Of a stretch of 32,000 bases of DNA, positions 5,522-30,240 are shown piece by piece. Each line of letters starts with the position of its first letter. The first letter of the stretch is position 1. The stretch covers positions 60,001 to 92,000 of the forward strand of contig NC_003267.1 in assembly GCF_000009705.1 (NCBI RefSeq), in the 5' to 3' direction. Under the pieces are notes generated by a model. That model was not told the origin of the DNA, searched no databases, and was given only the letters and a program-made list of their open reading frames with translations. This DNA comes from Nostoc sp. PCC 7120 = FACHB-418 (GTDB lineage: Bacteria; Cyanobacteriota; Cyanobacteriia; Cyanobacteriales; Nostocaceae). The position numbers and the translations under genes are program-made.

Positions 5522-8500
5522 TTATCTCCACCATCGTGACACATCCTGAATAGCAGAAGCTGTATCTTTCATTGCTTGTTTACCACCTAAAGTAAATATC
5601 ACAGGAGTTAATGCATTTATATCACTCAGTAAATTTGGGCGAGTGTGAATAGATAAAATGTTCAAAGTATCTCGCCAGAGATCAAAAAGTGGAGTTTTTT
5701 GTATTTGTGAAAGTTTATCAGCCAAACTACTTATGGCATAGGCGCGCTTATGCGTAGACTGAATCTCCCTAGCAGCAGCCAGTGCCTCACTTAACAATTC
5801 AGGTGGCAGTAGAGTAGCCAAACTACTTAGAGTGTTGGCGCGATACTCCTCATTCTGAATCTCCCTAGCAGCAGCCAGTACCTCACTTAACAATTCAGGT
5901 GGCAGTAGAGGAGCCAAACTACTGAGGGCGTTGGTGCGATACTCCTCATTCTGAATCTCCTTAGCAGCAGCAAGTGCCTCACTTAACAATTCAGGTGGTA
6001 GTAGAGGAGCCAGACGGCTTAGGGCTTTGGCGCGATAATACTCATCCTGAATCTCCTCAGCAGCAGCTAGTGCCTCACTTAACAACTCTGGTAAGTTATC
6101 AGCCAAACTACTTAGGGTTTTGGCGCGATAATACTCATCCTGAATCTCCCTAGCAGCAGCTAGTGCCTCACTTAACAATTCAGGTGGTAGTAGAGGAGCC
6201 AGACGGCTTAGGGCTTTGGCGCGATAATACTCATCCTGAATCTCCTTAGCAGCAGCAAGTGCCTCACTTAACAATTCAGGTAGCAGTAGAGGAGCCAAAC
6301 TACGTAGGGCTTTGGCGCGATAATACTCATCCTGAATCTCCTTAGCAGCAGCAAGTGCCTCACTTAACAACTCTGGCAACTTATCAGCCAAACTACATAG
6401 GGCTTTGGCGCGATAATACTCATCCTGAATCTCCTTAGCAGCAGCAAGTGCCTCACTTAACAACTCTGGCAACTTATCAGCCAAACTACGTAGGGCATAG
6501 GCACGATAATACTCATCCTGCATCTCCCTAGCAGCAGCAAGTGCCTCTGGTAACAACTTTGGCAGTAGAGGAGCCAGACGGCTTAGGGCTTTGGCGCGAT
6601 AATACTCATCCTGAATCTCCTTAGCAGCAGCAAGTGCCTCACTTAACAATTCAGGTAGCAGTAGAGGAGCCAAACGGCTTAGGGCTAAAGCGCGATCATA
6701 CTCAGACTGAATCTCCTTAGCAGCAGCAAGTGCCTCTGGCAACAACTTTGGCAGTAGAAGAGCCAAACTACTGAGGGCTAAAGCGCGATACTCCTCATTC
6801 TGAATCTCCCTAGCAGCAGCCAGTACCTTACTTAACAATTCAGGTGGCAATTTATTAGGCAAACTACTTAGAGTGTTGGCGCGATACTCCTCATTCTGAA
6901 TCTCCCTAGCAGCAGCCAGTACCTCACTTAACAATTCAGGTGGCAATTTATTAGGCAAACTACTTAGAGTGTTGGCGCGATACTCCTCATTCTGAATCTC
7001 CCTAGCAGCAGCCAGTACCTCACTTAACAATTCAGGTGGCAGTAGAGGAGCCAAACTACTGAGGGCTAAAGCGCGATACTCTTCATCCTGAATCTGCCTA
7101 GCAGCAGCCAGTGCCTCACTTAACAATTCAGGTGGCAGTAGAAGAGCCAAACGGCTTAGGGCTAAAGCGCGATCATACTCATACTGAATCTCTCTAGCAG
7201 CAGCCAGTGCCTCTGGTAACAACTCTGGCAACTTACCAGCCCAACTACTTAGGGTTTTGGCGCGATAATACTCATCCTTAATCTGCCTAGCAGCAGCCAG
7301 TGCCTCACTTAACAATTCAGGTGGCAGTAGAGGAGCCAAACGGCTTAGGGCTAAAGCGCGATCATACTCAGACTGAATCTCTCTAGCAGCAGCAAGTGCT
7401 TCTGGCAACAACTCTGGCAGTAGAAGAGCTAAACTACTTAGAGCGTTGGCACGATTTGACTCATCCTGAAACTCCCTAGCAGCAGCCAGTGCCTCACTTA
7501 ACAATTCAGGTGGTAGTAGAGGAGCCAGACGGCTTAGGGCTTTGGCGCGATAATACTCAGACTGAAACTCCCTAGCAGCAACCAGTGCCTCACTTAACAA
7601 TTCAGCAGGCAGTAGAGGAGCTAAACTACTTAGAGCGTTGGCACGATTTGACTCATCCTGAAACTCCCTAGCAGCAGCCAGTGCCTCACTTAACAATTCA
7701 GGTGGTAGTAGAGGAGCCAAATTACTTAAAGCATAGGCGCGACCCTCCTCATCCTGAATCTCCCTAGTAGCAGCCAGTGCCTCTGGCAACAACTCTGGCA
7801 GTAGAGGAGCCAAACTACTTAGGGCTTTGGCGCGATAATACTCATCCTGAAACTCCTTAGCAGCAACCAGTGCCTCTGGCAACAACTCTGGTATTAGAGG
7901 AGCCAAACTACTTAAAGCATAGGCACGACCCTCCTCATCCTGAATCTCCCTAACAGCAGCCAGTGCCTCTGGCAACAACTCTGGCATTAGAGGAGCCAAA
8001 CTACTTAGGGCTTTGGCACGCTTATACTCATCCTGAATTTCCCTAGCAGCAGCCAGTGCCTCTGGCAACAACTCTGGCAGTAGAGGAGACAAACTACTTA
8101 GAGATCTGACGCGATTTGACTCATCCTGAATCTCCCTAGCAGTAGCCAGTGCCTTACTTAATAATTCAGGTGGCAGTAAAGGAGTTAAACTACTTAGGGC
8201 ATAGGCACGCTCTAACTCAGCTTGAATCTCCCTAGCAGCAGCAAGTGCCTCACTTAAAAACTCAGGTAGCAGTAGAGGAGCCAAACTACTTAGGGCGTTG
8301 GCGCGATTTGACTCATCCTGAATCTCCCTAGCAGCAGCCAATGCTTTCCTTAGCCCTAATTCTTTTAGGTTTGGTGGCAAATGATTGACTAGCTGTGTAA
8401 GCAAGTAGGCTTTATTTTCTGGGTTCGAGCTTTGTAGCACGTAAGCGAGTCCTTGCTGGGGAGTCCAGACATTTTTTTGAACTAACGCAATCAACAGTTG

Positions 8501-9967
8501 GGCTGGTAAATTAGCTGCCAGACTATTAAGGGATGCAATAATCAAAGCATAGCGACATTGCATCCCAATGACTTCAGGTAGGGATGTAAGAGTCCAGGAG
8601 CCTTCTGCCGATTGCCAAGCACGAGCAATATCAGTTACAAAATTGGCAGTTTGCCCCAAGCTCGCGCACGCTTCATACCAACCATTACCGCCTGCTGAAG
8701 TTTCCTCTTGTAAAAGTTGATGTATCTGATTTAATTGGTTCGCTTGCTGGAAATGCCAAGTTAAATGAGCATGAATATAATCATCAGCAGGTAATGTATG
8801 CCATTGCCCTGATTGAGTTTTTTCTTGATAACGGTCTAATAACGCCGAATGAGCAACAGTCAAACTGAATCCCAGTCCTGGTAGTTTTCCTGGTTGATTA
8901 GGAACTTTCTCTCCTATAAGTAATCCAATAGCTACATCGTGCATTAAGTCATGTAGCCTGTAAGTTGGTTTTTTGTCAAACTGTATTGTTCCCGTTTGCA
9001 GTAATGCTTTAGACCGTAATTGACGTAATATTGTCAAAGCTTGTCTAGGATTAACACCCCAAAGCGTTGCCGCCATTGCATGGGTAATAACCACATCTTC
9101 TGGTAAAACTCCAAACCAAGCAAATTGTTGTAATAATTCTGGAGTTAAAGAATTCAAGCTGAGATTAAAAGAAGCTACCAGAGAATACTTTTTGCGCTTT
9201 TCTTCACTACTACAATCTACAAACAAGTCAAGTGTATCTAAATGAGCTATTTCTGCCTTTAAATCTTTTAGCAATTCTTCCCAGGCTATTCCATCTGCTC
9301 GCTGCGCTGCTGCCAATTCTAACGCTAAGGGTAAATAACCAACCGTTTCTGCTAAAAGTTCCGCCTGCTGTTTTTCTGCTTGGGTAAATTGCTTCAGATG
9401 TGGTTGACTTTCTAGAAGCTTTAGCGATTCGCTCTTTGTCATCACGTCCAGATCATAGCGGCTTGCCGCTAGTATCACAGCCTCTCGTGTAGTTACAAGT
9501 ACCCGACAACCAGCACCACCTACTTGAAAATATTCAACGTGTTCCGGATTCCAAGCGTCATCTACCACCAGCAAAACTTTCTTATCATAAAGTAAGGTCT
9601 GCAAGTGTCTTTTTGCATCATCTGATTGAATGGGTTTATAGTTATTGTCTCCTAAAGCCAGAATCCAACTACTTAATAATGGCAACAAATCAGGTTTTTG
9701 ACCTAAAGTAGCCCACAAAACCCCATCTTTAAAATAAGCTTGAACCTCATTATCATGGGCTATAGCCGCAGCTAATGTTGATTTACCAATTCCACCTAAT
9801 CCATAAATGGCACTAACAACTAAAGTTCCTTGACTATTTGTTTCTTGCCCCAGTAAAACTGCTTTTACTGCTTCATGGTGTAAGGGACGTTCTACAAAAT
9901 TAATTGGTAAAGGTGGTGCTTGGAAAGGTTTTTCTAACTTTACCCGTTCTCCAACGGGCGGCTGTAG
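5522..9967 (-). CDS. NB-ARC (AP-ATPase/STAND) NTPase with helical linker and 28 tandem HEAT/ARM-like repeats. The reading frame is open up to the in-frame TGA at 9968-9970 and has no canonical start before the P-loop.
   Basis: Motifs are P-loop GLGGIGKST (9776-9802), Walker B KKVLLVVDDAW, RVLVTTRE, GLPL motif GYLPLALELAAA and MHD motif RLHDLMHDVA. These are followed by 28 copies of EALAAAREIQDEYYRAKALSSLAPLLPPELLS. The track ORF (9718) starts at a TTG after the P-loop, but the frame is open upstream to 9967. Confidence 0.85.
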   Translation of the reverse strand, partial: LQPPVGERVKLEKPFQAPPLPINFVERPLHHEAVKAVLLGQETNSQGTLVVSAIYGLGGIGKSTLAAAIAHDNEVQAYFKDGVLWATLGQKPDLLPLLSSWILALGDNNYKPIQSDDAKRHLQTLLYDKKVLLVVDDAWNPEHVEYFQVGGAGCRVLVTTREAVILAASRYDLDVMTKSESLKLLESQPHLKQFTQAEKQQAELLAETVGYLPLALELAAAQRADGIAWEELLKDLKAEIAHLDTLDLFVDCSSEEKRKKYSLVASFNLSLNSLTPELLQQFAWFGVLPEDVVITHAMAATLWGVNPRQALTILRQLRSKALLQTGTIQFDKKPTYRLHDLMHDVAIGLLIGEKVPNQPGKLPGLGFSLTVAHSALLDRYQEKTQSGQWHTLPADDYIHAHLTWHFQQANQLNQIHQLLQEETSAGGNGWYEACASLGQTANFVTDIARAWQSAEGSWTLTSLPEVIGMQCRYALIIASLNSLAANLPAQLLIALVQKNVWTPQQGLAYVLQSSNPENKAYLLTQLVNHLPPNLKELGLRKALAAAREIQDESNRANALSSLAPLLLPEFLSEALAAAREIQAELERAYALSSLTPLLPPELLSKALATAREIQDESNRVRSLSSLSPLLPELLPEALAAAREIQDEYKRAKALSSLAPLMPELLPEALAAVREIQDEEGRAYALSSLAPLIPELLPEALVAAKEFQDEYYRAKALSSLAPLLPELLPEALAATREIQDEEGRAYALSNLAPLLPPELLSEALAAAREFQDESNRANALSSLAPLLPAELLSEALVAAREFQSEYYRAKALSRLAPLLPPELLSEALAAAREFQDESNRANALSSLALLLPELLPEALAAAREIQSEYDRALALSRLAPLLPPELLSEALAAARQIKDEYYRAKTLSSWAGKLPELLPEALAAAREIQYEYDRALALSRLALLLPPELLSEALAAARQIQDEEYRALALSSLAPLLPPELLSEVLAAAREIQNEEYRANTLSSLPNKLPPELLSEVLAAAREIQNEEYRANTLSSLPNKLPPELLSKVLAAAREIQNEEYRALALSSLALLLPKLLPEALAAAKEIQSEYDRALALSRLAPLLLPELLSEALAAAKEIQDEYYRAKALSRLAPLLPKLLPEALAAAREMQDEYYRAYALRSLADKLPELLSEALAAAKEIQDEYYRAKALCSLADKLPELLSEALAAAKEIQDEYYRAKALRSLAPLLLPELLSEALAAAKEIQDEYYRAKALSRLAPLLPPELLSEALAAAREIQDEYYRAKTLSSLADNLPELLSEALAAAEEIQDEYYRAKALSRLAPLLPPELLSEALAAAKEIQNEEYRTNALSSLAPLLPPELLSEVLAAAREIQNEEYRANTLSSLATLLPPELLSEALAAAREIQSTHKRAYAISSLADKLSQIQKTPLFDLWRDTLNILSIHTRPNLLSDINALTPVIFTLGGKQAMKDTASAIQDVSRWWR
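5711..8347 (-). repeat. Coding tandem repeat, 28 units of 93-96 bp (31-32 aa), many units near-identical at DNA level
   Basis: The period is visible directly. For example, tcctgaatctccttagcagcagcaagtgcctcacttaacaa recurs about every 94 bp, and 6841-6936 is essentially repeated at 6935-7030 (protein units 15 and 16 are identical). Confidence 0.9.
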
Positions 9968-10384
9968 TCAAGTATGGTAGTTATGAGTGTGATGACCACC
10001 GATGTTTGTTGTACCTTTTTCAGTCTCTACTTTAGTTTGGTAGCCCGTACTGTTGTCATAGTTATTTTGGGTCATGTTGCTGTTGTCTAACAGTTTTCCC
10101 ACATTAATCTCTTGCGCCAGTGCTTGTACCTGGGAAGCAAATTGTGGCTCGTCATCCATCACATCTTGTAAATAGACTGCTAGACGCTCTAACTCTGACT
10201 TATTTCCTTGTTCAACCGCAGTTAGTGCTTTTTCTGCTCTTGGATTACCTCGTAACTTATTCCAAATTTTCTGACGTAACTCATCCATCTTCACAAGGGC
10301 TGCTTCAGTGAATTTCTCTATTGTCGTCTCAAAAGCTTTAGTAAAAGCAAGAGTAACGATTACACCAGCAGTAAGTGGTTCCAT
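9968..10384 (-). CDS. N-terminal module of the NLR-like gene (138 aa): hydrophobic first helix, helical bundle and N/Q/G/T/H-rich tail. It ends at a TGA in frame with the NB-ARC ORF.
   Basis: ATG at 10384 is preceded by GAGG 6 nt upstream. Sequence runs MEPLTAGVIVTLAFTKAFETTIEKF...DNSNMTQNNYDNSTGYQTKVETEKGTTNIGGHHTHNYHT. The stop TGA at 9968-9970 is in the same frame as 5522..9967. Confidence 0.65.
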   Translation of the reverse strand: MEPLTAGVIVTLAFTKAFETTIEKFTEAALVKMDELRQKIWNKLRGNPRAEKALTAVEQGNKSELERLAVYLQDVMDDEPQFASQVQALAQEINVGKLLDNSNMTQNNYDNSTGYQTKVETEKGTTNIGGHHTHNYHT

Positions 10385-11076
10385 GTACAACCTCATCAGC
10401 ACAGGATTCTATTAATTTATTACCACATATCTTCTGCTCTTAATTCCGCATTCCGCTAATGGGCTATTTCGTGTAATGAGGCCACGCAATGATCGTAGTT
10501 TTACATCCTCTTAGCTTTGCATTATTTATACTACATTTGTATTACAAAATCCTTAAATAAAAAATAAGATACCCTTATCTTTTATACGATGAAAACTACG
10601 ATTAAAACCGAGGATTCTTGACAACACCGATTTTCGGACATCTTCTGTCCGTTGCTGACTTATAGAATGTAGCTAAAGTCTTTACGGGAAATTCAGGGGA
10701 TATGGCTGGGCGTTTACCTATACTTCTAGCCCACATCTTATATTAGCTGTTCTTTATCATTAGTATCTGCATTTTGGTTAATACTTTACATAACGTATCA
10801 ATCTGCACGGTTTGCCTTGCTTCACATTGCATCTAGGTAATGTTAACTTATCGTTTAAGTAAGTTAAGACTGCAACCATCTTTCCCTTGGGCTAAAGGAC
10901 GATAGCCCTTGCACCTCTGTTTTAGTGAGCGCGGCAGAATTAGCATTTTGTCTTTTAGAGGTTTGGTTCACTAAGCTTTATGTATTAATCAGGGGAAACG
11001 CACCTTATTTCCTAACAAAAACTAATCAGGATTTCAAAATTATTTATGTAAGTGCAAAACTTGACACAAAGATAAA

Positions 11077-12443
11077 CAGAACAAATCGATTCTTTTGCTA
11101 ATACGTAAATTAGCTTATCTCTAATGAAATAACTGTTGTCTAAGGGTAAATTAGTTAACTATTTAGCCATGAGTAAGTAAGCTTATCCCTAAAAATAAGC
11201 AACAATCATAACTAAATTATTGATAGGCTAGTTTACGCTAAAGCTAGAACTCTTTCTAAATATTTATTGTCCATTGCTGCCAGAAACTGTTTATTTTTGA
11301 TTCCCCGTTTCACACGCTTCTCTTTACCTAAAAGATTTACTGCTATCTGCCGCATTACTGCAAAATTTTGTGGAGCATTATCTTTCCTAATCCGGCAGTC
11401 ATCTTCTTTTAAAGCTACATCTAATATCCAATGCAATGAATTTTCTATTCCCCAGTGACTGCGAACAGAATTAGCAAATTGTTTGGCATTATCTTCAAGA
11501 CTACTAATAAAATAACGAATCTCCACTGTTGTTTTAGCATCTACTTGCCGGACGGATTCTACCATCCCAATACTATTAAACTTTGACCAAGCTGAATCAG
11601 GGTCAAGTCGGGATTAGATTCCTGTTAACATCGCGTAGTTGCGGATTTCATGACGACCATGCCCATGTTCTTCTGTTTTGTATGTGCTATGTTGAAAATC
11701 TTGAAAACCTTTGCCTATCTCTGCTTTAAATAGTTGCTCTACTTCATCATACAGATTACCTTGATTCTTTTTGAGGGTAATTACATAATCTGCGTTTTGT
11801 TGGCTAATTAACTTCACAATCTCCTTCTGGCAACCGATGGCATCAATTGTCACAATACAACCAGATAGTTCTAATACTTTTATTAATTCGGGAATTGCTG
11901 TAATTTCATTTGATTTCTCATCCACCTTTACCTGCCCTAACACTAACTTATTTGTAGTTGCCCACGCACTTACCATTTGTATTGCACTTTGGTTACTGCT
12001 TCTATCATGGGAGCCACATAAAGTTTTGCCGTCAATTGCTACTACCTCACCATCCGTCCTGATCTTTATTGACTTTATCCAGTTTAAGAAACATGACTGA
12101 AATTGCTGTGAATCCAATTGTGCAAAGACTCGTGCAAATGTATCGTGTGATGGTATTCCATTTGGTAGCTCCAAAAACGTTTTCAACCACTCATATTTTG
12201 TGCAGCCATACAATTCAATTGCCACCCAACTGTCCGCTCCACATATCACTGCACATAAAGCAATGGTGAGAATGTCAATTAATTTGTGCCGTTTTGTCCG
12301 ATCTACTCTTGGATCTTCCATCTGTGCAAAGTGGTCAGTAATCGTGATTTTGGGCTTGAGCTTCATGAAGAGAGTGGTACGGTAGTTCTTCTTTTTTTCT
12401 CGCACTCTTGAATTTACTACAAAAATGAACCCACATTGCCCTG
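11077..12443 (-). mobile_element. ISAs1-family insertion sequence (ends tentative)
   Basis: It contains the ISAs1/H-repeat-type transposase. The right end ...cattgccctg (12443) gives the CAGGG terminus I recall for ISAs1. The imperfect partner is cagaacaaatcgattcttttgctaatacgtaaatt at 11077-11111, against cagggcaatgtgggttcatttttgtagtaaatt. No target duplication was found. Confidence 0.4.
11233..12366 (-). pseudogene. ISAs1-family (H-repeat-associated) DDE transposase, inactivated by one in-frame TAA
   Basis: Sequence reads MKLKPKITITDHFAQMEDPRVDRTKRHKLIDILTIALCAVICGADSW...IPSHDTFARVF, then RSHWGIENSLHWILDVALKEDDCRIRKDNAPQNFAVMRQIA. The two track ORFs (11614..12405 and 11233..11565) are in the same frame and are separated only by TAA at 11614-11616. 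Confidence 0.8.
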
Positions 12444-12633
12444 GCAGCCTACGGTTGCCACAAACCTCACCCCCCCCTCAAAACGATTATTATTATTTGC
12501 TTACTTCTGGACAGTCAGGAAAAAGCGTCCTTCTGCGTAGGCGCAGCCCGCCACAGGCATCACTATCCAAAAAAACTTTTTGGTTTACTGTAGATAACAC
12601 AACTCTTTTCTTGGTTCGTGAGTCAGGCAAATT

Positions 12634-13473
12634 ATGCAACTACATCGATTCGACAACATTCAGGAGTTCTGGCACTCCACTCAGGCTTACTTGCTCCAGC
12701 ATCAGGTAGAAAACAATGTTTTGCTCAGTATCTCGCATACCTTGTTGCATAACCCAGAACGTTATCTAGGCAAGCCTTATTTAGCAATTGTCCAAACAAG
12801 TGGTGAGATTCTGGCTGTTGCCATCCGCACCCCACCCCAAAAATTGATCCTATCCAAAGCCCAGAATATGGATGCCTTGCGGTTGATTGCTCAAGATTTG
12901 CGTCAAGAGCAACTGCCAGGAAGTATGGGACTGGCAACTGAAGCAGAAATATTCTCGCAGACTTGGCAAGCCCTGACAGGACAATTCTATCAACGGTCGG
13001 TGGTAATGAAAATTTACCAATTAACGGCAGTGCAAACAGTCTCAACGTCCAGAGGATATCTTAGACTGGCAACTGAAGGCGATCGCTCTATTTTGACTAA
13101 GTGGCTTTCTGCATTTTTATCTGAGATCGATGAGGCGGTGAGCGAAGATGTCGAACACCAGGTAGATAATCGGTTGAAACAGCAGAATACTTATTTTTGG
13201 GTTGATAGCACTCCAGTTTCAGTTGCGTCTAGTAAACAAGTGTTACCTACAATTGGTCGGATCAATTTAGCTTATACACCACCAGAGTATCGTCGTAAAG
13301 GATATGCCACTACCTGTGTCGCTGCATTAAGCCAAAAACTGCTAGATCAGGGATGCCGCCATTGTTTCCTCATAGCAGATTTAGCTAATTCCACAGCCAA
13401 TCATATTTATCAAGCGATTGGGTATCGCCCCTTAAGCGATTGGCACGAATACTCATTCACCTCCAAGCAGTAA
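12634..13473 (+). CDS. GNAT-family N-acetyltransferase (two-domain, catalytic GNAT fold C-terminal)
   Basis: 279-aa ORF. An acetyl-CoA motif-A-like segment PPEYRRKGYATTCVAALSQKLLDQG is followed by ANHIYQAIGYRP. Confidence 0.7.
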   Translation: MQLHRFDNIQEFWHSTQAYLLQHQVENNVLLSISHTLLHNPERYLGKPYLAIVQTSGEILAVAIRTPPQKLILSKAQNMDALRLIAQDLRQEQLPGSMGLATEAEIFSQTWQALTGQFYQRSVVMKIYQLTAVQTVSTSRGYLRLATEGDRSILTKWLSAFLSEIDEAVSEDVEHQVDNRLKQQNTYFWVDSTPVSVASSKQVLPTIGRINLAYTPPEYRRKGYATTCVAALSQKLLDQGCRHCFLIADLANSTANHIYQAIGYRPLSDWHEYSFTSKQ

Positions 13474-13848
13474 GCATAATAAAGCAATCGCTTCCAGGCT
13501 TGGGAAATAAATCAAACCAGAAATATTAATTTTTTCATCAGCTCTTAATCTTGTTTGCCATTGAGAGTACTTTAGATGCGTTCGCCCTGATGTATTAATT
13601 GAGGCAGTAAAATATTGATTCTCAGTAATATATAGATATTGTCTAGGTAAAATAAATGCCTTTTTAATATACTTTTAAAGCTATTTAACCTAGATATATT
13701 TTTACTAACAAATGGGTATAACTTTTAACTAATTTATTTAGCTAAACTTTCGCACGAACGTAAAGATGTTGGCTGTTACGTATTCTCTCGTAGCTTGTTT
13801 CAGAAATCAAATATGATTCCCATAGCAGATATAGCTGTGCTTCACATT

Positions 13849-20212: not shown

Positions 20213-22258
20213 TCAAGCCGACTGGCTTTGGGTTTGACTGGGAGCTAATCTCAGCATCACTTTGGCCTGTTTACCAAAACCCTGACTAAAAGCTGACTGA
20301 ATTTCTGTGGAATTATAAACTTCTTTCAGCTTTAATTTCAGGTCAGGAACATTTTCAATCTCCAAAGAAATGTTCACGAATTTCGGTGTTGTCTCTACAT
20401 GAAATAATCCCGCATTCTGACTCAAAAATTCGGCTGTTGTCACCGAACATTTAGCTAAGGATTTTTGCCATTCTTGGGCATATTTTCTTTGGAAATAAAC
20501 ATTCCCTAAATTTTCTTTAATTAACGGTGATTGCGGTTGTTGTTTTGGCACTGATTCTTTGCTAGTAGATCCCAGGGTTTGCGGCTTATCTGTTGTGCTT
20601 TTTATCCCTTGTGGATTATCTTGATTCTTTAATTTTCGTTGTTCAATAAAAGACAAAGCTAGCAGTCTATTTTTATGTCTATCTAGTGCTTCTTGATATA
20701 GCTCCCAAGCTTTTTTAGTAATTGCTAATTCAGTGGGTTCAATCATTTTTACTATTGCTCGCCAATCTCCTAAAGTAAACTCTGACATTCTTTCGATAAA
20801 AGTCATGAATATAGCTTTGTAGATTTTGGCAGGTTGAGCATTTTTCAATCTCTGTTCGTACAACATATCGTAGACCATTTCTAGTCTAGTTCCTGACACA
20901 GATAAGTCAATTTCTGTGAGGTCAATATTCAGGCTATGTCTGATGCGAATTCTGTAAGTTTTCTCCAGGATAGGTTCTGTAGTTTCTTTAGTCGTAAACT
21001 CAACTGCTTGACCGCAATTCGGGCAAATGGCTTCGTGGTGTTCAATCAGTAAACCGTCTTCACCGATTTCTCCATCCACAATCGCTAGTTCATGAGACAG
21101 AGGTTTAAAAGCATGGGTGCAATGTGGGCATTGAATTAAACCCAAGGAACTTGAGGCGGTAAGAGTTTTGGCTTCTAAGCTCCATTGACGCTGCTCGTCT
21201 GGGAGTCCGTGCTTTTTCCAGTTGTCTGTTACGTCTATGATCACCGCCGTTGGTTTGAGTGTGTGTGTTCTCAACACCCTTCCTGTCATCTGAAGCCATA
21301 AGGTGGAGCTTTCTGTTGGACGCACACAGTAAATACACTCGATGTTGGGACAATCATATCCTTCTGTTAATATTTCGTAATTAGTAATTACTTGGGTTTC
21401 CCCACCACGGAATCGTTCTAAAATTTGAACTCTTAATTCTGGCGGAGTTTCCCCATCTAAATGTTCGGCTTTAATTCCATTACGGCGAAATTTTGCCGCC
21501 AACGCTCTACTATGTTCTAAACTACAGGCGAATATAACTGTCCGCAAGTTTTTTGCATATTTTAAGTAATTTTGAAATATTTCATCTACCCCGATTTGAC
21601 TGGTGACAGCAACTGCTAGTTCCTTGGCTCTAAAATCCCCGCGAGACTTTTTTACCCCAATAGTAGAAATAGTTTGGTTGGTGGTAAATAATCTAAATTT
21701 ACTTAAATATCCCTCTTTAATTAATGTTGATGTGGATATGCCTACTACTAAATCATCAAATAATTCTTGAAATCCTTGACCGTCGATTCTTTGGGGCGTG
21801 GCAGTTACACCCAATATCTGGGCTTCTTGATAATGTTCTATTAGCCTTCTATATGATGATGCGCTGCTGTGATGTGCTTCATCAAACAGTAATAGTCCGA
21901 TGTTTAATGGTAGTTCTAATATATCTCTTCTGGCTAATGTTTGAATACTAGCTACTTGAATCCTCCGCTCTGGATGCGCCGCACATCCTCCTTTAATTAT
22001 GCCTACTGGTTCCCCTACAATCTGTTCTAACTTTTCGGCGGCTTGAGTAATTAATTCAATGCGGTGGGCGATAACTAATACCTTTTGCTGTTTTTGAAAA
22101 AATTTCTGACAGATATGAGCAAAGCAGATGGTCTTACCTGCTCCTGTGGGTAACTGAGCCAGTACCCTTCTATTTCCTCGTTTCCAAGAGTTCCAAATAT
22201 CCTTTATCCATTGATGCTGATAATTTCTTAGTTCGTAGATGCAGGCTACTTTGGTCAT
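20213..22258 (-). CDS. SF2 DEAH-box helicase (RadD / type III restriction Res-like core) with a Cys4 zinc ribbon and a roughly 240-aa uncharacterised C-terminal extension
   Basis: Motif I LPTGAGKT, motif II LLLFDEAHH, motif III GVTATP, motif VI LQMTGRVLR. The zinc ribbon is CPHC...CPNC. The C-terminal region has no recognisable motif. Confidence 0.8.
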   Translation of the reverse strand: MTKVACIYELRNYQHQWIKDIWNSWKRGNRRVLAQLPTGAGKTICFAHICQKFFQKQQKVLVIAHRIELITQAAEKLEQIVGEPVGIIKGGCAAHPERRIQVASIQTLARRDILELPLNIGLLLFDEAHHSSASSYRRLIEHYQEAQILGVTATPQRIDGQGFQELFDDLVVGISTSTLIKEGYLSKFRLFTTNQTISTIGVKKSRGDFRAKELAVAVTSQIGVDEIFQNYLKYAKNLRTVIFACSLEHSRALAAKFRRNGIKAEHLDGETPPELRVQILERFRGGETQVITNYEILTEGYDCPNIECIYCVRPTESSTLWLQMTGRVLRTHTLKPTAVIIDVTDNWKKHGLPDEQRQWSLEAKTLTASSSLGLIQCPHCTHAFKPLSHELAIVDGEIGEDGLLIEHHEAICPNCGQAVEFTTKETTEPILEKTYRIRIRHSLNIDLTEIDLSVSGTRLEMVYDMLYEQRLKNAQPAKIYKAIFMTFIERMSEFTLGDWRAIVKMIEPTELAITKKAWELYQEALDRHKNRLLALSFIEQRKLKNQDNPQGIKSTTDKPQTLGSTSKESVPKQQPQSPLIKENLGNVYFQRKYAQEWQKSLAKCSVTTAEFLSQNAGLFHVETTPKFVNISLEIENVPDLKLKLKEVYNSTEIQSAFSQGFGKQAKVMLRLAPSQTQSQSA

Positions 22259-25721: not shown

Positions 25722-28700
25722 TTAGGGAGCAATAAAGACTTCACCGTCTTGGGTATTAGTTATCTGATTATCATTACTGATGGTTACATTAACACTACCA
25801 GAGCTAAAAATGGTAATACTAATACCATATCCCTGAATTTGATCAATTACATTGTTGGATAGTTCTACTGTTGAACCAGCAGCATCAAAAATTTCAAAGT
25901 TAATACCGTCAGTGAAATTGGCATCTCCAGCATCAGTATCCCTGATATTGCTAATTATGTTAGTAGCGATTTGGAAAGTAGCTGTACTAGTGCCATTGAG
26001 TTGGAAATTCATACCATCGCCATTGGTGATAGTATTGATAGTATTTCCAGCAGCAGTCACATTACCAGCCACCACATTATCAAAAGCTTGGAGGTTAATA
26101 CCTGATGATGTGATATCAGCATCTACCCCTGTAATTTGATTATTGTTGAGGCTAACACTGGTTAAGTTAGTATTTGCTCCTAACTGTACATCCATAGCAG
26201 TACCATTATTACTGATGGTGTTGTCATTAATTTGCAATGTGCCGATTGTATCAGATAAACTTACACGAATATCATTAAAGTTCTCCGTCAGTTGATTGCT
26301 ATTGACAGTTAAATTTGTTGTGCTTGAAGTGTTAGCGATCGCAATTCCATTATGATTGTTATTGCCATTAGCGATATTCTGGCTAACGCTGACTGTACCC
26401 GTCACTTCCGATAAGCTAATGCTTTCTTGTTGAGCATCAGTAATGGTATTGCTATCAACATTGATAGTCCCATTAGCATTTTCTACTTGAATACCTTGCT
26501 CACCTGCATTTGTAATGTTGTTATTAATAACTTGGGCATTATTGACACCGTTTAAATTGATGCCATCTCGAAAAGAATTACTAATGGTGTTCTGATCAAC
26601 AGTTACAATGATTGTATTATCTGGAGTTTTGTTGAAAGCATTAATGCCAGTTCCTTGAATATCAGAGATATTATTTCTGGCAATATTTACAGTTGTATTG
26701 ATATTAGTGTTGGAGTCAAAGTTATCAAAGAATTGTAAATCAATACCATTTCCTTCTGTAGTGATTTGAGAAATAGTATTATCTGTAATATCAATACTCC
26801 CAGCATTATCACCACCAGCAAACTGCATATAAATACCATTACCCACAGGAACTTGGGAAATGTTGTTATTGGCAACTGTAATCTCAGCTTTGGCATTATC
26901 AAATACTTCTACATTGATGCCTTCAGTAAAGTTGAAGTCTCCAGGATCAGTATCTTGAATATTGCTAATTGTGTTACCTGCAATATTGAATGTAGCTGTA
27001 CTGCTCCCATTGAGTTGGAAGTTCGTTCCATCCCCATTTGTCATATTGCTGATAGTATTATCGGAAACTTCAAAATCACCAATAGCAGCATTATCATAAG
27101 CCTGGAGATTGATACCTTGAGATGTAGTTGATGTAGCTGTACCTGTAATTTGGTTATTGTTAATAGTGGCGTTGGTGAGGTTGGTATTTTCTCCTAACTG
27201 CAAATCTATAGCAGTACCAGAATTCTCAATGATATTATTATTAATCTCGACTGTACCAGTCGTATTAGATAAACTCACACGAATGTCATTAAAGTTTTCT
27301 GTTAGTGTATTGCCATTGACTAAGAGATTGCTTTCACCTTGAATATTAGTAATTGTAATGCCATTATGATTGTTATTGCCATTAACAATATTCTGGCTAA
27401 CGCTGACTGTACCCGTCACTTCCGATAAGCTAATGCTTTCTTGTTGAGCATCAGTAATGGTATTGCTATCAACATTGATAGTCCCATTAGCATTTTCTAC
27501 TTGAATACCTTGCTCACCTGCATTTGTAATGTTGTTATTAATAACTTGGGCATTATTGACACCGTTTAAATTGATGCCATCTCCAGAAGAATTACTAATG
27601 GTGTTCTGATCAACAGTTACAATGATTGTATTATCTGGAGTTTCGTTGAAAGCATTAATGCCAGTTCCTTGAATATCAGAGATATTATTTCTGGCAATAT
27701 TTACAGTTGTATTGATATTAGTGTTGGAGTCAAAGTTATCAAAGAATTGTAAATCAATACCATTTCCTTCTGTAGTGATTTGAGAAATAGTATTATCTGT
27801 AATATCAATACTCCCAGCATTATCACCACCAGCAAACTGCATATAAATACCATTACCCACAGGAACTTGGGAAATGTTGTTATTGGCAACTGTAATCTCA
27901 GCTTTGGCATTATCAAATACTTCTACATTGATGCCTTCAGTAAAGTTGAAGTCTCCAGGATCAGTATCTTGAATATTGCTAATTGTGTTACCTGCAATAT
28001 TGAATGTAGCTGTACTGCTCCCATTGAGTTGGAAGTTCGTTCCATCCCCATTTGTCATATTGCTGATAGTATTATCGGAAACTTCAAAATCACCAATAGC
28101 AGCATTATCATAAGCCTGGAGATGGATACCTTGAGATGTAGTTGATGTAGCTGTACCTGTAATTTGGTTATTGTTAATAGTGGCGTTGGTGAGGTTGGTA
28201 TTTTCTACTAACTGCAAATCTATAGCTGTGCCATGATTGCTAATGATATTGTTGTTAATTTGTAACGTACCAGTGGTAGTAGATAAATCTACTCGAATAT
28301 CATTGAAGTTTTCCGACAAATTATTATTGGCAATTGTCAGATTTATATCACCTGTAGTATTAGCGATATCAATGCCTGTACTATTATTGCTACCATTAAT
28401 AGTGTTTTGATTAATAGTAGTTGTGCCTGTAACTTCGGTTAATTTTATAGCTTCTTGGTTATTATCAGTTAAGGTGTTATCACTAATATTTATCGTGCCA
28501 GTAGAGTTTTCTATGAAAATACCTCGATTACCTGAATTAGTAATACTATTGTTAGTAATTGTAGGTGAAATTACTTGAGATAGCTGTATGCCGTCTCCAG
28601 TTGTATTACTGATGGTATTATTAGTAATACTGCTTGTATCACTGACATTTGTGAGCAAGATGCCTGTACCAGTGATATTGTTGATCAAATTATTAGTAAT

Positions 28701-30185: not shown

Positions 30186-30240
30186 TAGTAAACCCTGGTA
30201 AATCAATGAAGCCAAAAGTCGGAAGTTAGACTTTTTATGG

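What the first reader, a model, noticed from the sequence alone, without database searches (positions are those of the whole stretch)
5711..8347. Sensor repeats are near-identical at DNA level, with variation confined to a few codons (concerted evolution plus hypervariable surface positions)
The 28 units share long, identical nucleotide stretches, and units 15 and 16 are identical. This points to recent unequal recombination. Amino-acid variation clusters at unit positions 11, 13, 14, 17, 18 and 23-26. It occurs as recurring cassettes (DESNRAN, DEYYRAK, SEYDRAL, NEEYRAN, DEEGRAY), while the EALAAA.EIQ and ELLS framework stays invariant. The same pattern is described for the rapidly diversifying WD40/ANK/TPR repeats of fungal NLRs. 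It suggests a recombination-driven, ligand-binding surface that can change specificity quickly. It is also an assembly hazard, so the copy number could be wrong.
Basis: seen in the sequence. Interest (0 to 1): 0.65.

Follow-up and report, generated by a model that had tools for sequence, protein, structure and literature searches.

The report
Shuffling repeat sensor of cyanobacterial NLR
The 28 tandem helical repeats are the sensor arm of a cyanobacterial NLR-like ATPase: they vary mainly at a few exposed positions, and the array is the only thing that differs between otherwise identical copies of this locus in other assemblies, which is the recombination-driven receptor diversification already described for fungal NLRs.

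Summary
The array is real. It has 28 in-frame units of 93 or 96 nt (window 5690-8344, minus strand). It forms the C-terminal arm of an NB-ARC STAND (NLR-like) protein. "Near-identical" is overstated: mean pairwise nt identity is 82%, synonymous divergence is about 0.25-0.3, and the longest exact repeat is 116 nt.

- **Variable sites.** Variability peaks at unit positions 10, 12, 13, 16 and 23.
- **Selection.** For four sites chosen beforehand from other species' arrays, dN/dS is 1.9 (1.55-2.36), against 0.43 for the other sites.
- **Structure.** AlphaFold2 gives helix-turn-helix repeats. The variable residues lie on the face of helix B opposite its hydrophobic face. The nearest solved proteins are artificial alphaRep binders, randomised on the same helix.
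- **Concerted evolution.** Arrays in other Nostocales are each homogenised around their own framework, with 4 to 30 units.
- **Same locus in other assemblies.** In eight, the flanks are 100.000% identical to the window and every difference lies in the array. These are unit losses at the longest exact repeats and short conversion-like tracts at variable codons. Assembly error is not fully excluded.

This is a new member of a known kind. Separately, a conserved UGA-C hairpin joins the upstream small gene in frame to this NLR.

The parts
5690..8344 (-). Array of 28 tandem units of 93 or 96 nt (31/32 aa, consensus ALAAAREIQDEYYRAKALSSLAPLLPPELLSE). This is the sensor solenoid of the NLR-like protein.
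   Evidence: AlphaFold2 on units 17-28 gives helix-turn-helix repeats with mean pLDDT 81. Foldseek hits are HEAT solenoids. The best PDB sequence hits are alphaRep proteins.
5525..5689 (-). C-terminal cap of 55 aa (LFDLWRDTLNIL...DVSRWWR) that follows the last, degenerate unit. The stop codon is at 5522-5524.
   Evidence: The cap is conserved in the orthologues L002, L003 and, more distantly, L005. It is not modelled with confidence (pLDDT below 50).
8345..9967 (-). NOD module: linker with PFQAPPLPINFVERP, Walker A (GLGGIGKST), Walker B (LLVVDDAW), the ARC/APAF-1-like helical part and a pre-repeat helical region. It has no ATG, GTG or TTG before the Walker A. The public annotation uses ATT at 9904.
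   Evidence: (Pfam NB-ARC E=2.4e-9; APAF1_C weak). About 985 homologues, nearly all cyanobacterial NB-ARC proteins.
9935..9970 (-). Conserved 36-nt element TGACTACAGCCGCCCGTTGGAGAACGGGTAAAGTTA. It begins with the UGA stop (9968-9970) of the upstream small gene, followed by C, and is predicted to form a nested hairpin. It is in frame with the NLR.
   Evidence: Among 55 instances, 49 of 51 stay open for at least 100 codons in the stop's frame, against 0 of 51 in either other frame. One stem pair covaries: C-G 34, U-A 20, U-G 1, C-A 0 (Fisher 4e-14).
9971..10384 (-). Upstream small gene of 138 aa (MEPLTAG...). It has a helical N-terminal domain and a disordered Asn/Gly/His-rich C-terminal motif (NSTGYQTKVETEKGTTNIGGHHTHNYHT). 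It is a candidate Bell-like executioner with an amyloid-signalling-type motif.
   Evidence: the 120 homologues listed, of 218 found, are nearly all 134-150 aa; helices 6-95; residues 99-138 have pLDDT below 50. In L030 the same motif recurs at the N-terminus of the adjacent NB-ARC-TPR protein.
6830..7041 (-). 116-nt exact direct repeat at offset 96 (6926-7041 and 6830-6945), spanning units 14/15/16. It matches the site of the one-unit difference (unit 15) seen in L019 and L024.
7426..7719 (-). 102-nt exact direct repeat at offset 192 (7618-7719 and 7426-7527). It matches the two-unit difference (units 8 and 9) seen in L024, L025 and L026.
6162..7559 (-). 72-nt exact direct repeat at offset 1326 (7488-7559 and 6162-6233). 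It matches the 14-unit difference (units 10-23) seen in L022.

Best explanation
The array encodes the C-terminal alpha-solenoid sensor of a STAND/NLR-like NB-ARC ATPase of a heterocystous cyanobacterium.

Structure. Each 31/32-residue unit is a HEAT-like helix-turn-helix. Helix A (PELLSE-ALAAAR) and the buried face of helix B (R14, A15, L18, S19, L21, A22, L25) form an invariant scaffold. The N-cap residue (position 10) and the exposed face of helix B (positions 12, 13, 16, 17, 20, 23, 24) vary. Stacked over 28 units, they would form one long, tyrosine-rich stripe. I take that stripe to be the ligand-recognition surface.

Evolution. Because the units stay about 80-99% identical at the DNA level, homologous recombination inside the gene keeps adding and removing units (unequal exchange or slippage at exact repeats of 72-116 nt). 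It also copies short tracts from one unit into another (gene conversion). This re-sorts a limited set of cassettes at the variable codons while homogenising the framework. Selection favours amino-acid differences at those codons.

Signalling. By analogy with other STAND proteins, ligand binding to the solenoid would release the NB-ARC module for nucleotide-dependent oligomerisation. Signalling would then pass to the small helical protein encoded immediately upstream, either as a separate protein or as a read-through fusion.

Shown here: the anatomy, the site pattern, the recombination signal, concerted evolution across species, and array-only differences between assemblies. Inferred: that the stripe binds a ligand, which ligand it binds, the immune or cell-death role, and the activation steps.
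For: - Architecture.
- Site pattern: the five most variable codons carry 21 non-synonymous and 0 synonymous alleles. The other codons carry 33 non-synonymous and 27 synonymous (Fisher 7e-5).
- Selection: dN/dS is 1.94 (1.55-2.36) at a-priori sites 10, 12, 13 and 16, against 0.43 for the rest. It is 2.3-18 at the same sites in L002, L003, L007, L008, L012, L013 and L016.
- The same top variable positions recur in independent arrays.
- Structure: helix B spans positions 11-24 and helix A spans 27-32 plus 1-6 in the AlphaFold2 model (pLDDT 81). The variability moment lies opposite the hydrophobic moment, p=0.0006 in the window, and likewise in five other arrays.
- Tyr makes up 42% of residues at positions 12, 13 and 16.
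- The nearest solved sequences are alphaRep binders. Their randomised positions 18, 19, 22, 23, 26 and 30 lie on the concave surface and make the contacts in crystal complexes (PMC3754942; PMC4613692).
- Recombination.
- Concerted evolution: within-array identity 76-83% against 46-58% between arrays. The APL variant at positions 22-24 is found in 15 of 28 units here and is absent from the top variants listed for L002 and L003.
- Copy number ranges from 4 to 30 among relatives (at a laxer cut-off, counts 5 in L003).
- Same locus elsewhere: flanks show 0 mismatches over 7.5-17.7 kb in eight assemblies. All 4, 5, 11 and 1 mismatches lie in the array. The unit maps are 28, 28, 27, 28 and 14 units, plus partial arrays lacking units 8, 9 and/or 15. 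Every variant tract confined to a single stretch has an exact donor in another unit and mostly hits variable codons; the three scattered changes in unit 26 of L020 have none. Deletion sizes equal the offsets of the longest exact repeats.
- The L018 changes are a subset of the L020 changes in separate assemblies. The 8-9 difference is shared by three assemblies, one of which has diverged flanks.
Against: - No ligand, phenotype or expression data exist.
- Coordinates of the model were not available. Exposure on the concave side rests on helical-wheel statistics and on homology with alphaRep. The register against alphaRep is ambiguous by one residue.
- dN/dS between units of one protein is not a standard population test.
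- Synonymous divergence of about 0.25-0.3 between units shows that homogenisation is far from complete.
- Window versus L002 arrays (75% identity) are no more different than L002 units are among themselves (76%).
- Differences between assemblies could be collapse or polishing artefacts at repeats. Two contigs from one project (L022, L024) disagree with each other.
- The gene has no canonical start. In one assembly it is interrupted by an IS.
- There is no hit to any PADLOC defence model.
Confidence: 0.7

Rival explanations
1. The array is stable, and the differences between assemblies (and perhaps the copy number in the window) are assembly or polishing artefacts. Assemblers collapse at the longest exact repeats. 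Mis-mapped reads during polishing write one unit's bases into another.
For: - Deletion end-points coincide exactly with the longest exact repeats, which is also where assemblers err.
- Variant tracts always copy another unit, as mis-polishing would.
- Two metagenome contigs from one project give different arrays (L022 and L024).
- Many assemblies break in or before the array.
Against: - All k-mers of 117 nt or more are unique in the array, and the two collapsed contigs carry k127 names.
- Four assemblies give 28 units.
- The five L018 changes recur within the eleven L020 changes in a separate assembly.
- The 8-9 difference is shared by three assemblies from different sources, one with 0.4% diverged flanks.
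- Arrays of 14-30 units occur in relatives, some on contigs of 6-10 Mb.
Confidence: 0.2
2. The solenoid is only a structural spacer or scaffold. Its exposed positions vary because they are unconstrained, and recombination merely spreads neutral variants.
For: - Variable positions are solvent-exposed, where constraint is weakest.
- The overall dN/dS of the unit is 0.48.
- The N. linckia orthologue (L005) has a degenerate, non-homogenised repeat region with the same cap.
Against: - Neutrality caps dN/dS at 1. The a-priori sites give 1.94, with a lower bound of 1.55, and values above 2 in seven other arrays.
- There are zero synonymous alleles at the five most variable codons, against 27 elsewhere.
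- Codon alleles differ by 2-3 nt (TAT, GAG, TCA).
- Strong Tyr enrichment is typical of binding surfaces.
Confidence: 0.12
3. The gene is a decaying pseudogene. It has an in-frame stop upstream, no start codon and IS elements around it. The array drifts because nothing depends on it.
For: - There is no ATG, GTG or TTG before the Walker A.
- An IS605-type element is inserted in the gene in one assembly.
- The neighbourhood is IS-rich.
Against: - 1481 codons are open after the stop, with no frameshift.
- The framework codons are under purifying selection (dN/dS 0.27-0.43).
- The stop-plus-hairpin junction is conserved in 55 instances, with the frame kept open in 49 of 51. It is therefore a feature and not damage.
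Confidence: 0.06
4. Variation at the few codons is produced by a targeted mutator such as a diversity-generating retroelement.
For: Variation is focused on a handful of codons.
Against: - No reverse transcriptase or template repeat is present among the annotated genes of the locus.
- Every tract confined to a single stretch is an exact copy of another unit and not an adenine-specific change.
- Alleles recur as cassettes.
Confidence: 0.02

Closest known systems
Fungal NLRs with highly internally conserved (HIC) WD40, ANK, TPR or HEAT repeats (HET-E/D/R and the NWD family, Podospora anserina)
   Same: Both have the NLR architecture and repeats kept similar by reshuffling within the gene. Both show repeat-number polymorphism between strains and positive selection on a few positions of each unit that map to the interaction surface (PMC4986451; PMC13449251). 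The Psim-like similarity here is 0.83, above the 0.7 cut-off used there.
   Different: This one is bacterial and has an NB-ARC module with a 31/32-residue HEAT-like unit. Mean pairwise aa identity is 75%, below the 85% used by Dyrka et al. 2014. No allorecognition or other phenotype is known. The HEAT class was left out of the 2026 survey across the tree of life.
alphaRep artificial binders and the natural PBS-type HEAT-like repeats they were designed from
   Same: Both have a unit of about 31 residues with two helices, and an Asp N-cap and Arg in helix 2. alphaRep proteins are the best PDB sequence hits (E=4e-4). Variability is concentrated in an i, i+1, i+4, i+5, i+8 pattern on the second helix. 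In alphaRep this is positions 18, 19, 22, 23, 26 and 30, on the concave binding surface.
   Different: The match is weak. Pfam HEAT models do not hit. The register is ambiguous by one residue: 3 of 6 positions coincide in HMMER's alignment and 6 of 6 after a one-residue shift. The framework sequences differ, and the units here are 31 or 32 residues long.
Bacterial Bell-domain / amyloid-signalling-motif (BASS) / NLR gene pairs (Dyrka et al. 2020)
   Same: A small helical protein with a C-terminal Asn/Gly-rich motif is encoded immediately upstream of an NB-ARC NLR in a filamentous cyanobacterium. In L030 the same small-protein family shares its motif with the N-terminus of the adjacent NLR. In L004 and L002, orthologues of this NLR share a motif with their upstream gene.
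   Different: The window's NLR has no N-terminal motif of its own. The two ORFs are instead joined in frame through a UGA-C hairpin element. The Bell assignment was not tested against a Bell profile, and Foldseek gave no significant match.
Antiphage STAND NTPases (Avs, bNACHT)
   Same: Both are STAND ATPases with a C-terminal repeat sensor, and variable N-terminal effectors occur across the family: TIR, caspase, CHAT, trypsin and EAD4. Named from my own knowledge and from the reference list seen.
   Different: There is no PADLOC model hit and no evidence of phage defence. Avs sensors are not reported as internally homogenised arrays (own knowledge).
Bacterial contingency loci (tandem-repeat copy-number variation inside genes)
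   Same: Both show in-frame gain and loss of repeat units between otherwise identical genomes.
   Different: The units here are about 96 nt and encode a folded module. The changes include conversion tracts and do not switch the gene on or off.

Membership tests
STAND / NLR-like NB-ARC (AP-ATPase) proteins | NB-ARC nucleotide-binding module with Walker A and Walker B motifs | tested here: met
   Pfam NB-ARC hit with E=2.4e-9, bits 37.3 against a cut-off of 23.5. GLGGIGKST and LLVVDDAW were read in the translation.
STAND / NLR-like NB-ARC (AP-ATPase) proteins | C-terminal superstructure-forming repeat domain | tested here: met
   28 helix-turn-helix units with alpha-solenoid Foldseek hits.
STAND / NLR-like NB-ARC (AP-ATPase) proteins | N-terminal effector or adaptor domain on the same polypeptide | tested here: inconclusive
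   None is present after the stop codon. A 138-aa helical protein lies upstream in the same frame, separated by UGA-C. Fusion by read-through is inferred only.
HIC-repeat NLRs (concerted evolution plus diversifying selection) | High internal conservation of units (85% aa identity or more, Dyrka 2014; or Psim of 0.7 or more, PMC13449251) | tested here: inconclusive
   The Psim-like value is 0.83, which meets the 0.7 criterion. It was not computed with T-REKS. Mean pairwise aa identity is 0.75, and only 30 of 351 pairs reach 0.85.
HIC-repeat NLRs (concerted evolution plus diversifying selection) | Repeat-number polymorphism between strains | tested here: met
   28, 28, 28, 27 and 14 units, plus partial arrays lacking units 8, 9 or 15, all with identical flanks. 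Read-level confirmation is lacking.
HIC-repeat NLRs (concerted evolution plus diversifying selection) | Positive selection on a few positions per unit | tested here: met
   dN/dS is 1.94 (1.55-2.36) at a-priori sites, against 0.43 at the rest. This used the Nei-Gojobori method only.
HIC-repeat NLRs (concerted evolution plus diversifying selection) | Selected positions lie on the interaction surface | tested here: inconclusive
   They lie on the exposed face of helix B by helical-wheel statistics and by the secondary structure of the model. No coordinates and no ligand are available.
HEAT-like / alphaRep-type repeats | Two-helix unit of about 31 residues forming an alpha-solenoid | tested here: met
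HEAT-like / alphaRep-type repeats | Significant match to curated HEAT profiles | tested here: not met
   No HEAT family hit at E<=0.01 in Pfam. Only spurious hits were found (Nterm_IS4, RhoGAP). The PDB alphaRep match is weak, E=4e-4.
Bell / BASS / NLR amyloid-signalling pairs | Matching short motif at the C-terminus of the effector and the N-terminus of the adjacent NLR | tested here: not met
   The window's NLR region after the stop (LQPPVGERVKLEKPFQAPP...) has no copy of the motif. The feature is met in the related loci L030, L004 and L002.
Diversity-generating retroelement targets | Nearby reverse transcriptase and template repeat; adenine-specific changes | tested here: not met
   No RT is present in the locus. 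The variant tracts copy other units.
Known antiphage defence systems (PADLOC 2.0) | Match to a defence-system protein model | tested here: not met
   No hits for the NLR or for the small protein.

The most novel reading that the evidence does not exclude
The receptor array is re-sorted on the time scale of culture-collection sublines, which have zero substitutions in up to 17.7 kb of flank. A clonal filamentous cyanobacterium would then carry a shifting repertoire of NLR specificities, as a contingency locus for an intracellular receptor. In addition, the receptor is made as a programmed UGA read-through fusion with a Bell-like executioner, through a conserved UGA-C hairpin found at 55 such junctions. 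One mRNA would yield both the free executioner and a sensor that carries the executioner's templating motif.
Probability: 0.3. Interest if true: 0.85.

Novelty: new member of a known kind. Interest (0 to 1): 0.6.

Why it matters
- **A bacterial model for NLR sensor diversification.** NLR sensors that diversify by repeat reshuffling have been studied almost only in fungi. This is a bacterial example with a simple two-helix unit and a clear set of variable positions. Other assemblies of the same locus appear to have caught the process in action. One cluster member is named Nostoc sp. PCC 7120. If the strains are lab lines of a genetically tractable Nostoc or Anabaena, rates and consequences could be measured directly.
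- **A natural counterpart to engineered binders.** The array shows a natural version of the alphaRep design principle: a fixed HEAT-like scaffold with a randomised face on helix 2.
- **A practical warning.** This repeat family is not covered by Pfam. It attracts spurious names in the source annotations (ribosomal protein L17, regulatory protein), and it breaks or shortens short-read assemblies.

Tried and rejected
- **Exact-protein look-ups.** The 1460-aa and 1366-aa products were not on record.
- **PLSDB plasmid search.** It returned only distant arrays at 73-77% identity and did not find the source.
- **Genome-contig scan.** It found orthologues but not the source species.
- **Pfam, NCBIfam and PADLOC.** They gave no family for the repeats, the cap or the small protein. 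NCBIfam hits were only to NB-ARC-like parts of TPR proteins, far below cut-off.
- **Foldseek on the small-protein model.** Nothing significant.
- **Rfam on the junction.** Nothing.
- **Register against alphaRep.** I tried to fix it by correlating entropy and hydrophobicity. It stayed ambiguous between two offsets.
- **Nonsense-mutation reading.** I first took the 144-aa ORF to be an N-terminal domain cut off by a nonsense mutation. I rejected this because nearly all of the 120 homologues listed are stand-alone proteins of 134-150 aa and the stop is conserved.
- **DGR-type mutagenesis.** Rejected.
- **Literature on PCC 7120 substrains.** The search found nothing about this locus.
Full report
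**1. What is there**

Tandem Repeats Finder reports a single array at 5720-8344 (period 96, 27.7 copies, 82% matches). It lies inside a minus-strand ORF, 5522..9718. No ORF of 100 aa or more lies on the other strand.

The translation shows, in order:
- the Walker B motif (LLVVDDAW) and the ARC region of an NB-ARC ATPase (Pfam NB-ARC E=2.4e-9; APAF1_C weak);
- a helical region;
- 28 units of 31 or 32 residues (consensus ALAAAREIQDEYYRAKALSSLAPLLPPELLSE);
- a 55-residue cap.

The Walker A motif (GLGGIGKST) lies upstream of the first canonical start codon, in the same frame.

Homologues are about a thousand NB-ARC proteins, among the listed hits nearly all cyanobacterial. Their N-termini carry EAD4, TIR, caspase, CHAT or trypsin domains. 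The protein is therefore a STAND/NLR-like receptor and the array is its sensor arm.

**2. Check of the observation**

The 28 units, the cassettes and the list of variable positions are correct. Three statements are too strong:
- **"Near-identical".** Mean pairwise identity of units 1-27 is 0.816 at the nucleotide level (0.69-0.99) and 0.75 at the protein level. The synonymous difference per site is 0.24-0.28.
- **"Variation confined to a few codons".** The framework codons carry 27 synonymous alleles.
- **"Framework invariant".** There are A1V, I8F/M and S31P variants, and positions 6 and 20 also vary.

Units 15 and 16 are identical over a full period only in a shifted register (a 116-nt exact repeat at offset 96). 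Phased at ALAAA they differ by one base.

**3. Pattern of variation**

- The five most variable codons (my positions 10, 12, 13, 16, 23) carry 21 extra amino-acid alleles and no synonymous allele. The other 27 codons carry 33 and 27 (Fisher 7e-5).
- To avoid choosing sites from the data being tested, I took the sites that rank highest in arrays of other species. Positions 10, 12, 13 and 16 recur in L007, L008, L012 and L013, and three of the four in L016.
- At these four sites the window array gives dN/dS = 1.94 against the array-wide dS (bootstrap over units 1.55-2.36). The remaining sites give 0.43.
- The same sites give 2.3 to 18 in seven other arrays. They give about 0.5-1.1 in the two least homogenised arrays.
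- Tyrosine makes up 42% of residues at positions 12, 13 and 16 (24% in the family).

**4. Structure**

AlphaFold2 on units 17-28 plus the cap, from a single sequence, gives mean pLDDT 81 over the repeats. The repeats form a regular helix-turn-helix pattern:
- helix B spans unit positions 11-24 (11-22 in some units);
- helix A spans positions 27-32 plus 1-6 of the next unit;
- position 10 is the residue just before helix B and is D, N or S in 25 of 27 units.

Foldseek finds HEAT solenoids (SF3B1, PP2A-A, karyopherins), designed helical repeats and alphaRep. TM-scores are low, as expected for differing superhelical curvature.

I therefore tested exposure by helical-wheel statistics. The variability moment of helix B is significant (p=0.0006 by permutation in the window). 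It points 165-180 degrees away from the hydrophobic moment in all six arrays tested. The variable residues thus occupy the solvent face of helix B and not the core.

The best sequence matches among solved structures are artificial alphaRep binders (E=4e-4). Their randomised positions 18, 19, 22, 23, 26 and 30 were chosen from natural variability. They lie on the concave surface and make the contacts in crystal complexes (PMC3754942; PMC4613692). Three of the six coincide with the variable positions here in HMMER's alignment, and all six coincide after a one-residue shift. The register could not be settled. That the stripe is the ligand-binding surface is an inference.

**5. Recombination and concerted evolution**

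Within the unit alignment, 432 of 1035 pairs of informative sites show all four gametes. Rmin is 12 in 96 nt, and incompatibility rises with distance (PHI-like permutation p<0.0005). Cassettes occur with many different heads and tails.

Fifteen related loci were fetched from other genomes.
- Complete relatives have 4 to 30 units at the stricter cut-off (one search counts 5 in L003).
- The closest orthologues have 25-26 units (Spirirestis, 87% identical NOD) and 4-5 units (Nostoc flagelliforme). Both have the same cap.
- The N. linckia orthologue has a degenerate, non-homogenised repeat region.
- Units are 76-83% identical within arrays of high internal conservation. They are 46-58% identical between arrays of paralogues and distant orthologues, and each array has its own framework consensus.
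- A variant at positions 22-24 (APL) occupies 15 of 28 units in the window. It is absent from the top variants listed for the two closest orthologues.
- Between the window and its closest orthologue, homogenisation has not outrun divergence (75% between arrays, 76-81% within).

**6. The same locus in other assemblies**

Looking up the 138-aa upstream protein returned ten other assemblies of this locus.

In eight of them, everything outside the array that could be aligned is identical to the window. There are 0 mismatches and 0 gaps in 7.5 to 17.7 kb.

All substitutions lie inside the array: 4 of 4, 5 of 5, 11 of 11 and 1 of 1. The array makes up only 13-25% of the aligned length (chance 3e-4, 4e-5 and 3e-9 for the first three).

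Unit maps against the window:

| Locus | Record | Units | Differences from the window |
|---|---|---|---|
| L017 | CP183476.1 | 28 | unit 19 K16L (3 nt); one synonymous change in unit 22 |
| L018 | CP183820.1 | 28 | unit 26 K6E; unit 27 T17A and T23P |
| L020 | GCA_014696765.1 | 28 | the L018 changes plus more, so that unit 27 becomes a copy of unit 26 |
| L019 | AP018218.1 | 27 | unit 15 absent; unit 6 YY to EG (4 nt) |
| L022 | ERZ926301 | 14 | units 10-23 absent |
| L024 | ERZ926320 | partial | units 8, 9 and 15 absent |
| L025 | GCA_003514525.1 | partial | units 8 and 9 absent |
| L026 | JGI 3300014786 | partial | units 8 and 9 absent; units 1 and 3 fused; flanks 99.4-99.6% identical |
| L023 | JGI 3300030446 | partial | one base in unit 15 |

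Every variant tract confined to a single stretch is an exact copy of the corresponding stretch of another unit; the three scattered changes in unit 26 of L020 have no single donor. Most tracts hit variable codons. The sizes of the three deletions (96, 192 and 1326 nt) equal the offsets of the exact repeats of 116, 102 and 72 nt found beforehand.

This is what unequal homologous exchange and gene conversion would produce. It is also what assembly collapse and mis-polishing would produce.

Points against artefact:
- No k-mer of 117 nt or more is repeated in the array, and the two collapsed contigs carry k127 names.
- The L018 changes recur in L020.
- The 8-9 difference is shared by three assemblies, one of them from a diverged strain.

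Points for caution:
- L022 and L024 come from one project and disagree.
- I could not see reads.

I put about 0.2 on the differences being mostly artefacts.

Names attached to near-identical proteins include Anabaena cylindrica FACHB-170, Nostoc sp. UBA8866 and Nostoc sp. PCC 7120 = FACHB-418. Two records are replicons of 104 and 107 kb. The identity of the flanks suggests sublines of one strain or a recently shared plasmid. This was not established.

**7. How it most likely works**

- **Shown:** an NB-ARC STAND protein whose sensor is an alpha-solenoid of 28 HEAT-like units. A fixed scaffold with a variable, tyrosine-rich, exposed stripe on helix B. Recombination among units. Homogenisation within lineages. 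An excess of amino-acid change at the stripe. Differences between assemblies confined to the array.
- **Inferred from established knowledge of STAND/NLR proteins:** the stripe binds a ligand. Binding releases the NB-ARC module for oligomerisation, and a cell-death or other effector is then engaged.

The candidate effector is the 138-aa protein encoded immediately upstream. It is helical over residues 6-95 and has a disordered Asn/Gly/His-rich tail. The 120 homologues listed, of 218 found, are nearly all stand-alone proteins of 134-150 aa.

- In L030 the same tail motif recurs at the N-terminus of the adjacent NB-ARC-TPR protein.
- In L004 and L002, orthologues of this NLR share a motif with their upstream gene.

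This is the Bell/BASS/NLR arrangement of Dyrka et al. 2020. The window's NLR lacks its own copy of the motif.

**8. Comparison with what is known, and novelty**

High internal conservation with reshuffling and site-specific positive selection is established for fungal NLR repeats (PMC4986451). It has been noted for WD and TPR repeats of bacterial NLRs, including cyanobacteria. A 2026 survey found HIC repeats associated with ATPase domains in all domains of life, but left HEAT repeats out (PMC13449251).

This locus is therefore a new member of a known kind. The additions are:
- the alphaRep-like unit;
- agreement of the variable sites across many cyanobacterial arrays;
- the array-only differences between otherwise identical assemblies.

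It is not a member of any PADLOC defence family. It is not a DGR target.

**9. Side finding at the 5' end of the gene**

The stop of the small gene is UGA followed by C (window 9968-9970 and 9967). It opens a conserved 36-nt element (9935-9970) predicted to fold as a nested hairpin that includes the stop codon.

A pattern scan found 51 further stretches in metagenome contigs. Across 55 non-identical instances:
- The frame of the stop stays open for at least 100 codons in 49 of 51, against 0 of 51 in either other frame.
- The downstream product has a P-loop in 43.
- 29 of those 43 have no canonical start at least 30 codons before the P-loop.
- One stem pair that the pattern left free covaries: C-G 34, U-A 20, U-G 1, C-A 0 (Fisher 4e-14).
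- Four instances have one extra loop base. This changes the reading frame across the 3' half of the element while its nucleotides stay conserved, and the frame is restored downstream.

UGA with +4C is documented as an inefficient terminator in bacteria (PMC5289835). There is no Rfam family for the element, and I found no paper describing it.

The simplest reading is programmed read-through that fuses the small protein to the NLR. This is untested.

Noticed in passing
window 9935-9970 (minus strand); also L003 4437-4473, L005 9995-10030, L027 7421-7456, L029 7415-7450, L031 6427-6462, and L034-L084: A conserved element, TGAC-N5-YCGYCYG-N5/6-GAACGGRY-AAAGTYA, starts with the UGA stop of a small upstream ORF and joins it in frame to a downstream STAND NTPase (sometimes a kinase or CHASE2 protein). 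Among 55 instances, 49 of 51 stay open in the stop's frame against 0 of 51 in the other frames. One stem pair covaries (C-G 34, U-A 20, C-A 0). 29 of 43 downstream P-loop ORFs lack a usable start. It looks like a UGA read-through signal. There is no Rfam family and I found no paper on it.
   Followed up: partly
window 9971-10384 (minus strand): A 138-aa protein with a helical domain and a disordered C-terminal motif NSTGYQTKVETEKGTTNIGGHHTHNYHT. Of 218 homologues found, the 120 listed are nearly all stand-alone proteins of 134-150 aa. In L030 the motif is repeated at the N-terminus of the adjacent NB-ARC-TPR protein, as in Bell/BASS amyloid-signalling pairs. There is no Pfam family (weak DUF7607) and no significant fold match.
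   Followed up: partly
window 8586 (insertion point); L001/L021 11800-12012: In assembly GCA_014696775.1 (A. cylindrica FACHB-170) the NLR gene is identical up to window 8586, 240 bp before the array. It then runs into unrelated DNA that starts an ORF with a weak HTH_OrfB_IS605 match (E=0.0036), and the contig ends 200 bp later. This is either an IS insertion into the receptor gene or an assembly break.
   Followed up: partly
window 17186 onward compared with L001/L021 1-3200: Upstream of window 17186 the FACHB-170 contig carries Prok-E2_D, Prok-JAB and ThiF genes (a ubiquitin-like conjugation set). The window carries OrfB_IS605 and Y1_Tnp genes there instead. The breakpoint lies next to an ISAZ013-type transposase.
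   Followed up: no
window 11233-12405 (minus strand): An IS4-like DDE transposase is split into two ORFs (263 and 110 aa; DDE_Tnp_1_assoc plus DDE_Tnp_1). It is probably frameshifted. It lies between the small gene and an acetyltransferase gene.
   Followed up: no
window 5690-8344 and homologues P0121-P0238: No Pfam model covers this repeat family. It draws spurious hits (Nterm_IS4, RhoGAP, Ribosomal_L17, Stanniocalcin), and some homologues carry names such as 'ribosomal protein L17', 'SAM-dependent methyltransferase' or 'regulatory protein'. The same repeat type also follows NACHT-type ATPases, and it occurs in proteins labelled Chloroflexus and Planctomycetota.
   Followed up: no
L005 (Nostoc linckia z4) 9998-13624: This orthologue has an 83% identical NOD, the same kind of upstream small gene and UGA-C junction, and a related C-terminal cap. 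Its repeat region is degenerate, with only 1-3 units recognisable. The homogenised state can therefore be lost or gained between close relatives.
   Followed up: partly
L004 (Rivularia) and L002 (Spirirestis), upstream of the NLR: These orthologues of the NLR start with a short motif that matches the C-terminus of the upstream gene product. In L004 the upstream protein ends ...QQAGDNAKQIGEIGSAGTINL and the NLR starts MVDQKAGNNAVQFGEIGSVGEININ. The upstream protein in L004 looks like the end of a CHAT/caspase-like protein, which was not tested.
   Followed up: no
window 20213-22258 (minus) and 25722-30215 (minus): The first is a ResIII/DEAD helicase that matches PADLOC type IV restriction and PbeA models (E=8e-39). 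The second is a 1497-aa right-handed beta-helix protein. The NLR sits in an IS-rich region on what other assemblies record as a replicon of about 104-107 kb.
   Followed up: no
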